DNA of 43,570 nucleotides. It comes from a virus. Taxonomy: Duplodnaviria; Heunggongvirae; Uroviricota; Caudoviricetes. Made by a program: the position numbers. The stretch is from IMG/VR virus record IMGVR_UViG_2522572023_000011; one strand, given 5' to 3'. Below, in pieces: positions 42,001-43,570 of the stretch (its first letter is position 1; each line of letters begins with the position of its first letter).

Positions 42001-43570
42001 AGGCCTCGCTTCCGGCAATACTCGTAAACCATATCAACCAGCTCGCTGACGTTTGGCAGTCCGGCGATAACGGATGCTTCTTCCCGGCACCATGCAACAA
42101 ACTGCCCGGGTGATGGCAGAAATGGTCGATTCTGCCGACGGGCTACGCGCATTCCTGCGTTAACCTGTTCCATTGTGGTGATCCCGTTTTCCCGGAAAGC
42201 CAGAACCCACTGGCGGCGGATTTCGTTCAGTTCGTTCTGGTCACGGTTAGCCAGGCTCGCCGGGAAAGTTGCCAGTAACTGGCTGAACACACCGTTGATG
42301 ATCTGCGCTACCTGCTGTACCTGCGGCTTTTCGTCGTACTGTTCCGGCATGTTGTTGGCGATCCGACGCATCTGCTCACTGTCAAAGTTAACCATCTGTG
42401 CGGCGATGTTTTTCATAGATCCACCCCGTAAATCCAGTCTGTGTTTGTCAAGTCGAGTTTTGGTTTGCTGGCTGTCACGACTGCCTGTTGCTTGTTACGG
42501 TTGATTTCGAGCTGGGTCCACTTGTCGCGGAGTTTGGCCGGGCTCAGCACGTTACCGGACCAGAAGTTGTCCTGGCATGCCCAGCGGAACAGCACGCACA
42601 TGTCGCGGTGGTTACGTCCGTCACGTTCACGCATCAGGCGGATATCGTTAGCCCACCCAGCAAAATTCGGTTTTCTGGCTGATGGTGCGATAGTCTTCAC
42701 CATGTCAAACATCCACTCTGCGGCGGTCAGGTCTTCTGCTGTCCCCCACTTGCTGCCGCTCTGAATTGCAGCATCCGGTTTCACCACAGAAAGGTCGTTT
42801 TCTGGCTGGTCAGAGGATTCGCCAGAATTCTCTGACGAATAATCTTTTCTTTTTTCTTTTGTAATAGTGTCTTTTGTGTCCCCCTGTTTTGAGGGATAGC
42901 AATCCCCCAATTTGAGGGATGTTTTATCCCTCGTTTTAAGGGATTTTCCCTCGTTTTGAGGGATGCACCATTCTGAGATGTTTTTATTTGGTCCAAACAT
43001 GCCGCATTGCTGCTTGATAATATTCATTCTGACGAGTTCTAACTTGGCTTCATTGCACCGTTTGACGGGTAACTTTGTAATCTCGCTAAGTTGAGAATCA
43101 GTGATTCTGTCCATTGGTTTATTCCACCCATAGGTTTTACGCAGAATGGCAAGCAGCACTTTAAACTGTCGCTTGGTCAGATCTGCGCCTGAACCGCCCC
43201 GGGAATCCTGGAGACTAAACTTCCTGAGAAAGAGGTAAACAGGATGACTAAAAATACTCGTTTTTCCCCTGAAGTCCGTCAACGGGCAGTCCGTATGGTT
43301 CTGGAAAGTCAGGGCGAATATGACTCACAATGGGCGACAATTTGTTCCATTGCTCCAAAGATTGGCTGTACGCCGGAGACTCTGCGTGTCTGGGTTCGCC
43401 AGCATGAGCGGGATACCGGGGGCGGTGATGGAGGGCTCACCACCGCTGAACGTCAGCGTCTGAAAGAGCTGGAGCGTGAAAATCGTGAACTGCGCCGCAG
43501 TAACGATATCCTTCGCCAGGCTTCCGCTTATTTTGCGAAGGCGGAGTTCGACCGCCTCTGGAAAAAATGA

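What the first reader, a model, noticed from the sequence alone, without database searches (positions are those of the whole stretch)
42413..43570. Second IS629 copy interrupts replication gene O upstream of intact ori iterons; two same-orientation copies bracket about 37.5 kb of prophage
O homology begins exactly at the IS left end, and the O N-terminal codons are absent from the window. The four ori iterons and the AT-rich region inside O are intact, and P and ren are intact. Loss of the O N-terminus would make the prophage replication-defective. Two directly oriented IS629 copies flanking the tail-to-replication segment create substrates for deletion or inversion.
Basis: partly seen in the sequence, partly recalled or inferred. 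Interest (0 to 1): 0.55.

Follow-up and report, generated by a model that had tools for sequence, protein, structure and literature searches.

The report
IS629-capped deletion scar in prophage
A 1.3-kb mobile element (IS629) marks the spot where about 11 kb of a lambda-like prophage has been deleted, taking the start of its replication gene, its repressor and its integrase; this is an ordinary form of prophage decay in Shiga-toxin-producing E. coli.

Summary
The window is E. coli O145:H28 RM12761 (identical in RM13516), a lambdoid prophage integrated at ssrA. A second IS629 starts at 43190 and is identical and co-oriented with the copy at 4348-5657. Lambda-type O starts at codon 42 against the IS left end. 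The ori iterons, P and ren are lambda-like. The interpretation of a simple insertion into O is wrong. In the full genome the IS right end abuts the last 164 nt of a DUF4760 gene, then the displaced ssrA 3' fragment and ypjA. There is no target duplication. About 11.1 kb is missing: O codons 1-41, cII, cro, cI, the recombination genes, int and most of DUF4760. Neither reciprocal junction exists in the genome, so this is a net deletion and not an inversion. Both junctions occur only in these two outbreak isolates. The sister ST32 lineage (19 genomes) carries a different IS629|ypjA' junction with at least three different left junctions. One of them (RM12367-C1) has lost almost the whole prophage. 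This is routine IS629-driven prophage erosion. It leaves an immobile, non-replicating remnant that retains nleG7. Interest is low.

The parts
43190..43570 (+). Left 381 nt of IS629 copy 2 (IRL plus the whole of orfA). The element runs on to window-equivalent position 44499, beyond the window end.
   Evidence: Direct repeat of 4348-4647. The full 1310 bp, recovered from NZ_CP007133.1, is identical to copy 1. orfA matches HTH_Tnp_1.
42413..43189 (-). 5'-truncated lambda-type replication initiator gene O (codons 42-299), with no start codon or promoter of its own.
   Evidence: Alignment to lambda O shows 3 substitutions and 41 codons missing. Pfam Phage_rep_O matches profile positions 23-95 only. 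Annotated as 'replication protein, missing N-terminus'. No promoter-like site in 42300-43570.
42824..42964 (.). ori-lambda core inside O: the AT-rich stretch (42824-42879) and four 18-bp iterons (42880-97, 42903-20, 42927-44, 42947-64).
   Evidence: Colinear comparison with the annotated lambda iterons. Three are identical, iteron 2 has one substitution at 42939, and the AT-rich part is identical.
41715..42416 (-). Replication gene P, full length (233 aa).
   Evidence: 5 substitutions relative to lambda P. Pfam Phage_lambda_P, E = 1e-61.
41428..41718 (-). ren, full length (96 aa).
   Evidence: 1 substitution relative to lambda Ren.
4348..5657 (+). IS629 copy 1, a simple insertion in the tail-fibre gene with a 3-bp target duplication GTT (4345-4347 and 5658-5660).
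   Evidence: Flanks read directly. Removing the IS and one GTT restores a 450-aa open reading frame.
1034..1060 (+). Left att core: the 3' end of ssrA (tmRNA gene 698-1060). The same 27 bp recur 262 nt beyond the right end of IS copy 2, outside the window, and mark the other prophage end.
   Evidence: Longest exact match between window 601-1400 and L001 15101-15700. tmRNA annotation.
42413..43282 (-). Chimeric 289-aa ORF. It starts at a TTG on the antisense strand of the IS left end and runs in frame into O codon 42. Probably a chance read-through.
   Evidence: ORF list. No promoter-like site was found.

Best explanation
The feature is the scar of an IS629-mediated deletion inside a lambdoid prophage integrated at ssrA. 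It is not an insertion into O.

Shown: one complete IS629 joins O codon 42 on its left to the last 164 nt of a DUF4760 gene on its right. That gene fragment lies 262 nt from the displaced ssrA 3' fragment (attR) and the chromosomal gene ypjA. Undeleted relatives carry about 11.1 kb between these two points: O codons 1-41, cII, cro, cI, cIII/kil/gam/bet/exo, small early genes, int and most of DUF4760. That DNA is absent from the whole genome.

Inferred route:
1. An IS629 was inserted in DUF4760 near attR. Its right flank, GTTC..., looks like the target of the sister copy.
2. A second, co-oriented copy landed in O.
3. Homologous recombination between the two 1.3-kb direct repeats removed the DNA between them and one copy.

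A one-step transposase-dependent adjacent deletion from a single resident IS leaves the same scar and is nearly as likely.

Consequence (inferred from lambda biology): the remnant has no int/xis, no repressor, no pR/pL or N, and no functional O. It cannot excise, cannot be induced, and cannot initiate replication at its otherwise intact ori. It is fixed in the chromosome together with its nleG7 effector gene. Its other defects are IS629 in the tail-fibre gene and a frameshifted portal gene.
For: - The window is NZ_CP007133.1 3278575-3322144.
- The IS right end abuts DUF4760', then the ssrA 3' fragment, then ypjA.
- There is no target duplication at copy 2 (GCC on the left, GTT on the right). 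Copy 1 has GTT/GTT, and removing it restores the ORF.
- O55:H7 CB9615 and strain E300082 show the undeleted order ...ren-P-O-cII-cro-cI...int-DUF4760-att(-ypjA). The gap corresponds to CB9615 locus positions 3329-14433, which is 11,105 bp.
- The hypothetical reciprocal junctions are not found in RM12761. 'IS right end + O 5'/cII' gave hits covering 80% or more of the query in 10 other genomes only, at other positions. 'DUF4760 5' part + IS left end' gave 0 genomes, and the DUF4760 5' part occurs in only 8 genomes, none of them RM12761.
- Two separately deposited assemblies from the same outbreak, RM12761 and RM13516, have both junctions. No other of the 5426 genomes does.
- IS629 is the commonest IS in these strains (PMC3893438).
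- Only 21 of 47 IS629 sites in O157 keep a target duplication (PMC3271280).
- iee is present in RM13516 (PMC5567499, Table 2).
- Deletions in the O145:H28 ssrA prophages and loss of their int gene have been reported (PMC7067040).
- The sister ST32 lineage shows a series anchored on one IS629|ypjA' junction with three or more different left junctions.
Against: - No intermediate state was found: neither an IS in DUF4760 with an intact O, nor an IS in O with a target duplication. The order of events and the sub-mechanism are therefore inferred.
- The 4-nt identity (TGAA) between the IS terminus and the deleted O sequence would fit a one-step microhomology-type join better than two-copy recombination.
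- The undeleted references (CB9615, E300082) are mosaic relatives and not the direct ancestor. The exact size and content of the lost segment are therefore approximate.
Confidence: 0.88

Rival explanations
1. One-step adjacent deletion. A single IS629 resident in DUF4760 lost the DNA to its left through an aberrant transposase-dependent event (possibly helped by IEE), and its left terminus was joined to O at a TGAA microhomology. No second copy was ever present in O.
For: - The O sequence just beyond the break is TGAA, the same as the first 4 nt of the IS; the chance of this is about 1/256.
- iee is present in RM13516 (PMC5567499).
- Deletions from a few nt to more than 40 kb next to IS629 are reported during IEE-dependent events (PMC9943667, citing Kusumoto 2011).
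- The ST32 series keeps one IS junction fixed while the other side varies.
Against: - The ST32 left junction in ninB shows no microhomology.
- The RM12367-C1 left junction lies 1 nt from a genuine IS629 insertion site, which points to transposase target choice (an insertion) rather than end-joining.
- IEE-type events as described mainly remove the IS itself, whereas here a complete IS is retained (bioRxiv 10.1101/2023.06.07.543989).
Confidence: 0.35
2. Simple IS629 insertion into O. The O 5' fragment and a 3-4 bp target duplication would lie just beyond the IS right end, with the rest of the prophage intact.
For: Within the window alone nothing contradicts it. O homology stops at the IS end.
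Against: - The full record shows DUF4760'-att-ypjA after the IS.
- There is no target duplication.
- cII, cro, cI and int are absent from the locus.
Confidence: 0.01
3. Inversion or translocation between IS629 copies. The early region would have been moved elsewhere in the chromosome rather than lost.
For: The chromosome holds about 16-22 IS629-like places. Large IS- and prophage-mediated rearrangements are known in EHEC (PMC8743559). In RM11626-C1 the two prophage landmarks lie about 685 kb apart.
Against: After any IS x IS exchange, the O 5' flank would stay attached to an IS right end and the DUF4760 5' flank to an IS left end. Neither junction exists in RM12761, and the DUF4760 5' part is absent from the genome altogether.
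Confidence: 0.03
4. Assembly artefact. A mis-join across the repeated IS629 would have collapsed the early region out of the assembly.
For: Identical 1.3-kb repeats are classic sites of mis-assembly. Both assemblies come from the same laboratory (PMC3893438, PMC4032123).
Against: Two isolates that were separately sequenced and finished give identical junctions. The missing sequence is not placed anywhere else in a closed genome. An independent study found the int gene of the ST32 ssrA prophages deleted (PMC7067040).
Confidence: 0.03
5. Chimeric origin rather than deletion in place. An older remnant (IS629-DUF4760'-attR) would already have been at ssrA, and the present prophage body was joined to it by recombination with an incoming lambdoid phage that carried an IS629 in O.
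For: Lambdoid prophages at this site are highly mosaic. Replacements at ssrA are reported (PMC7067040). CB9615 and RM12761 differ in their Q/nin modules.
Against: It needs more steps than a deletion. The ST32 and ST6130 lineages share the same prophage left end and nin region at 99.7-100% identity, which argues for one resident prophage eroding in place.
Confidence: 0.05

Closest known systems
IS629-associated deletions and defective lambdoid prophages of EHEC O157 (the Sakai Sp prophages). Sources: Asadulghani 2009 (PMC2669165), Rump 2011 (PMC3271280); Ooka 2009 and Kusumoto 2011 only as cited in PMC9943667.
   Same: The IS family is the same and it preferentially sits in prophages. Many copies lack target duplications. 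Deletions remove integration, regulation or replication modules and leave effector-carrying remnants.
   Different: The host lineage is different (O145:H28 ST6130) and the junctions are specific: O codon 42 | IS | DUF4760 codon ~254. These were seen only in RM12761 and RM13516 among 5426 complete genomes.
Bacteriophage lambda replication module (O, ori iterons, P, ren; NC_001416 38686-40570)
   Same: 97.8% nucleotide identity. It has four iterons, the AT-rich region, full-length P and full-length ren.
   Different: O lacks codons 1-41, which is part of its N-terminal Phage_rep_O DNA-binding domain. The upstream pR-cro-cII region that supplies transcription is absent.
The ssrA prophage of O145:H28 ST32 strains (RM13514, RM8988-C1, RM9872, RM12367-C1; Nakamura 2020, PMC7067040)
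   Same: It is the same prophage: the nleG7 end is 99.7-100% identical, and the nin region carries the same 590-aa AT-rich ORF. It is also truncated by an IS629 in the same orientation and has lost int.
   Different: Both junctions differ. ST32 has ninB' | IS | ypjA', so it additionally lacks ninB, ren, P, O', DUF4760', attR and 392 nt of ypjA. Some strains have further left-side losses.
Undeleted ssrA-integrating lambdoid prophages of O55:H7 CB9615 and strain E300082
   Same: The right end has the same organisation, int-DUF4760-att (99.7-100% identity over the retained 289-300 bp). CB9615 also has the same ninE-to-O module at 97.7%.
   Different: They retain the complete early region and have no IS629 at either breakpoint.

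Membership tests
IS629 (IS3 family) | About 1310 bp with imperfect terminal inverted repeats beginning TG and ending CA. | tested here: met
   Both copies are 1310 bp. IRL is TGAACCGCCCCGGGAATCCTGGAGA and the reverse complement of IRR is TGAACCGCCCCGGGTTTCCTGGAGA.
IS629 (IS3 family) | orfA (HTH) and orfB (DDE) joined by a programmed -1 frameshift. | tested here: met
   orfA matches HTH_Tnp_1. The record annotates a joined 'IS3 family transposase, programmed frameshift' and an AL1L pseudoknot. The DDE domain was not scanned separately.
IS629 (IS3 family) | Near-identity to the reference IS629 rather than to another IS3-family member. | tested here: inconclusive
   No ISfinder reference was available. 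The element is 96% identical to O157 copies annotated IS1203 and 99.6% identical over 795 nt to a copy annotated 'IS629 family'. 1217 records hold a copy at 99% or more. PMC3893438 calls IS629 the commonest IS in RM13516.
IS629 (IS3 family) | A 3-4 bp target-site duplication at a simple insertion. | tested here: met
   Copy 1 has GTT/GTT. Copy 2 does not (see the next family).
Simple IS insertion into gene O | The two halves of the target gene flank the element, with a short direct duplication. | tested here: not met
   The left flank is O codon 42 and the right flank is the 3' end of DUF4760. The flanking triplets are GCC and GTT.
IS-bounded (IS-mediated) deletion | An intact IS terminus is joined to DNA that is non-contiguous in undeleted relatives. 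There is no target duplication, and the intervening DNA is absent from the genome. | tested here: met
   There is an 11.1-kb gap relative to CB9615. No reciprocal junctions exist, and the DUF4760 5' part is absent genome-wide.
Functional lambda-type replicon (ori-lambda with O and P) | Full-length O with its N-terminal iteron-binding domain. | tested here: not met
   Residues 1-41 are missing, and Pfam Phage_rep_O profile positions 1-22 are unmatched.
Functional lambda-type replicon (ori-lambda with O and P) | Four iterons plus the AT-rich region, and an intact P. | tested here: met
   There is one substitution in iteron 2.
Functional lambda-type replicon (ori-lambda with O and P) | Rightward transcription from pR across or near ori (transcriptional activation; established lambda biology). 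| tested here: not met
   The pR-cro-cII region has been deleted. No promoter-like site was found in 42300-43570.
Excisable integrated prophage | Both att sites plus a cognate int (and xis). | tested here: not met
   Both 27-bp att cores are present. int is absent from the locus: in CB9615 it lies inside the deleted interval.

The most novel reading that the evidence does not exclude
The retained ori-lambda (four iterons and the AT-rich region) with intact P may not be inert. Two other O-like genes exist in the same chromosome. On induction of a sibling prophage, their product could bind this orphan origin in trans. That could trigger local over-replication of the ssrA-nleG7 region, or the origin could act as a sink that titrates O. 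Alternatively, the in-frame chimeric ORF (42413-43282) could yield an O protein that lacks DNA binding, sequesters P, and interferes with incoming lambda-type phages.
Probability: 0.04. Interest if true: 0.4.

Novelty: already known. Interest (0 to 1): 0.12.

Why it matters
The biological importance is small. It is one more example of IS629 eroding and immobilising an effector-carrying prophage in EHEC.

Practical value:
1. The two junctions (O codon 42 | IS629, and IS629 | DUF4760') are specific markers of the 2007 Belgian ice-cream outbreak clone among 5426 complete genomes. The IS629 | ypjA' junction marks 19 O145:H28/NM genomes in the collection, which include the ST32 strains RM13514, RM9872 and RM12367-C1.
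2. The remnant cannot excise or replicate, so its nleG7 gene is stably fixed.
3. It is a caution for readings made from a window alone. An IS at the edge of a window that appears to interrupt a gene may instead cap a deletion.

Tried and rejected
- Reciprocal-junction searches built from the IS ends plus the CB9615 O 5'/cII or DUF4760 5' sequence found nothing in RM12761. This rejects inversion or translocation.
- I looked for an intermediate isolate carrying only one of the two copy-2 junctions and found none.
- I tested whether microhomology to the IS terminus is a general property of the deletion junctions at this locus. It is 4 nt at the O junction, 3 nt (TCA) at the ST32 ypjA junction and 2 nt in RM12367-C1, but 0 nt at the ST32 ninB junction. 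It is therefore not a consistent signature, and I do not rely on it.
- A promoter scan for anything that could drive O'-P-ren or the chimeric ORF found none.
- A Pfam scan of the two AT-rich ORFs found no family.
- Ooka 2009 (PMC2765283) is not held in the paper library. Kusumoto 2011 was not looked up. Both are cited only through PMC9943667, PMC5567499 and the bioRxiv review 10.1101/2023.06.07.543989.
- Loci L002, L003 and L008 were not exported to the scripting machine. For CB9615 and RM12367-C1, smaller stretches were fetched instead.
I could not survey how many genomes share each ST32 left junction.

Full report
**Source and layout.** The last 2.2 kb of the window match E. coli O145:H28 RM12761 (NZ_CP007133.1) and RM13516 at 100% in one piece, and no other genome does so. 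These are the food and human isolates of the 2007 Belgian ice-cream outbreak (PMC4032123). The window is NZ_CP007133.1 3278575-3322144. Its order is as follows:
- smpB and ssrA (tmRNA, window 698-1060)
- a DinI-like gene, a capsid remnant, nleG7 and a hypothetical gene
- the tail-fibre gene, split by an IS
- tail, head (with a frameshifted portal), terminase and lysis genes
- Q and the nin region
- ren, P, a 5'-truncated O, and a second IS

It is a lambdoid prophage integrated at ssrA and read from its late end to its early end.

**Checking the observation.**
- The repeat finder reports a direct repeat at 4348 and 43190, with starts 38,842 bp apart.
- Completing copy 2 from the genome record shows two 1310-bp elements that are identical at all positions. 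They have TG...CA inverted repeats and bracket 37,532 bp.
- orfA matches HTH_Tnp_1. The record annotates a frameshifted IS3-family transposase and the AL1L pseudoknot.
- The element is 96% identical to the O157 copies annotated IS1203 and 99.6% identical to a copy annotated IS629 family. IS629 is the commonest IS in these strains (PMC3893438). The name is therefore reasonable, although I had no ISfinder reference.
- Window 41400-43189 is 97.8% identical to lambda 38809-40598.
- The O fragment equals lambda O residues 42-299 with 3 substitutions. P (233 aa) and ren (96 aa) are full length.
- Three of the four iterons and the AT-rich stretch are identical to lambda. Iteron 2 has one substitution at 42939.
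- Pfam Phage_rep_O matches only profile positions 23-95, so the cut lies inside the N-terminal DNA-binding domain.

**What lies beyond the window.** In the genome record the IS ends 1310 bp after it starts. It is followed by GTTCATCATT... and not by O. This flank matches the last 164 nt of a DUF4760 gene at 99.7-100% in O55:H7 CB9615, O157 strains 493/89 and LSU61, and strain E300082. Downstream, 262 nt on, is a 27-bp exact copy of the ssrA 3' end, which is the other att core. The chromosomal gene ypjA follows.

In CB9615 the ssrA prophage reads ...ninE-methylase-ninB-ren-P-O-cII-cro-cI-...-cIII-kil-gam-bet-exo-...-int-DUF4760-att. E300082 shows the same int-DUF4760-att-ypjA end with a different replication module. 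Pairwise BLAST places the left breakpoint at CB9615 locus position 3328 and the right breakpoint at 14434, so 11,105 bp are missing.

The three bases left of the IS are GCC and the three to its right are GTT, so there is no target duplication. Copy 1, by contrast, has GTT on both sides, and removing it with one GTT restores a 450-aa tail-fibre reading frame. Copy 1 is a simple insertion. Copy 2 caps a deletion.

**Deletion, not rearrangement or artefact.** After any exchange between IS copies, the O 5' flank would remain attached to an IS right end and the DUF4760 5' flank to an IS left end. I built both hypothetical junctions and searched all complete E. coli genomes.
- The first junction was found in 10 genomes, none of them RM12761 or RM13516, and always at other positions in O/cII.
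- The second junction was found in no genome. The DUF4760 5' part occurs in only eight genomes, not including RM12761.

The missing DNA is therefore gone. Both real junctions occur in two separately finished assemblies and in none of the other 5424 genomes.

**How it probably arose.** IS629 duplicates 3-4 bp on insertion, yet only 21 of 47 sites in O157 retain a duplication, which shows how often copies are rearranged later (PMC3271280). RM13516 carries iee (PMC5567499). IEE-dependent events produce deletions of up to more than 40 kb next to IS629 (PMC9943667).

Two routes leave the observed scar:
- (a) A second co-oriented copy lands nearby, followed by homologous recombination between the two copies.
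- (b) A one-step, transposase-dependent adjacent deletion occurs from a single resident copy.

The right flank begins GTTC, like the flank of copy 1 (GTTCTGCC) and like the ST32 junction (GGTTCC). This suggests that the right junction is an original insertion junction and the left side is the derived one. The next four bases of O beyond the break are TGAA, identical to the IS terminus, which would suit route (b). However, the comparable ST32 junction has no such identity. In addition, the RM12367-C1 left junction lies 1 nt from the genuine copy-1 insertion site, which points to transposase target choice and so to route (a). I slightly favour (a). The two cannot be separated without an intermediate isolate.

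Nineteen O145:H28/NM genomes, among them the ST32 strains RM13514, RM9872 and RM12367-C1, share an IS629 joined on its right to ypjA. This junction is 841 bp beyond the copy-2 right end and removes 392 nt of ypjA. Their left junctions differ:
- the ninB 3' end (window-equivalent 40952) in RM13514 and RM8988-C1
- a truncated antirepressor gene in RM9872
- the tail-fibre gene in RM12367-C1, where only the 3.3-kb nleG7 end survives

This series anchored on one IS agrees with the published remark that ssrA prophages show deletions of various lengths and that int is lost in all complete ST32 genomes (PMC7067040). The ST6130 structure in the window is either an independent event or an earlier stage of the same erosion. 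No genome carries the product of copy 1 x copy 2 recombination. Direct repeats could give only deletion, not inversion.

**Consequences (inferred from established lambda biology).** The remnant lacks int and xis, cI, cro, cII, N, pL and pR, and O residues 1-41. I found no promoter-like site upstream of O'-P-ren. The remnant should be unable to excise, to be induced, or to fire its ori unaided. Q, the lysis genes and most morphogenesis genes remain and could respond only to factors supplied by other prophages, as described for the O157 defective prophage pool (PMC2669165). Two other O-like sequences exist in the chromosome, so action in trans on the orphan iterons cannot be excluded, but nothing supports it.

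**Verdict.** This is an ordinary IS629-bounded prophage deletion in a published genome, and interest is low.

Noticed in passing
Outside the window: L010 34600-36000 (RM13514), L012 (RM8988-C1), L011 (RM9872), L009 4440-5760 (RM12367-C1). Window-equivalent left junctions at 40952 and 4347/4348.: 19 O145:H28/NM complete genomes, including the ST32 strains examined, share one IS629|ypjA' junction but have at least three different left junctions: the ninB 3' end, a truncated antirepressor gene, and the tail-fibre gene. This is a nested erosion series anchored on a single IS. RM12367-C1 retains only the 3.3-kb nleG7 end of the prophage.
   Followed up: partly
window 4345-4348, and L009 4436-4440: The tail-fibre site was apparently hit twice by IS629 in the same orientation. 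RM12761 has ...CCTGTT|IS and RM12367-C1 has ...CCTGTTC|IS, 1 nt apart. This is either a target hot spot or a 1-nt indel or sequencing difference.
   Followed up: partly
window 37936-38826 and 38880-39707 (+): Two AT-rich ORFs (30-37% GC), on the opposite strand to the nin genes around them, are residues 1-296 and 316-590 of a single 590-aa ORF that is intact in RM13514. In this strain it is a pseudogene. There is no Pfam match and its function is unknown.
   Followed up: partly
window 20437-21546: Six tandem copies of a 162-bp (54-codon) unit, 83-92% identical to one another, lie inside a 3.07-kb CDS annotated as a frameshifted portal protein.
   Followed up: no
window 5658-5661; L001 15101-15105; L010 35947-35952: All three IS629 right flanks at this locus begin (G)GTTC, resembling the element's own terminus GGTTCA. 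This may reflect a target preference for sequences like its own ends.
   Followed up: partly
NZ_CP035768.1 (RM11626-C1), about 2.67 Mb and 3.36 Mb: In this ST32 strain the prophage left end and the IS629|ypjA' junction lie about 685 kb apart, which implies a large chromosomal rearrangement with one breakpoint in this prophage.
   Followed up: no
Other genomes (hits H33-H51 and H136-H149): IS629/IS1203 copies lie in or next to O/cII of lambdoid prophages in more than a dozen unrelated strains (O157:H7, O80:H26, O2:H1 and others). Their positions differ from the one here, so this region is hit repeatedly.
   Followed up: no
window 42413-43282 (-): A 289-aa ORF with a TTG start on the antisense strand of the IS left end runs in frame into O codon 42. 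No promoter-like site was found. It is probably a chance read-through.
   Followed up: partly
window 42939: The single difference from lambda within the iterons (G to A on the + strand) changes iteron 2 from ATCCCCTAAAACGAGGGA to ATCCCTTAAAACGAGGGA and causes the O substitution P124L.
   Followed up: yes
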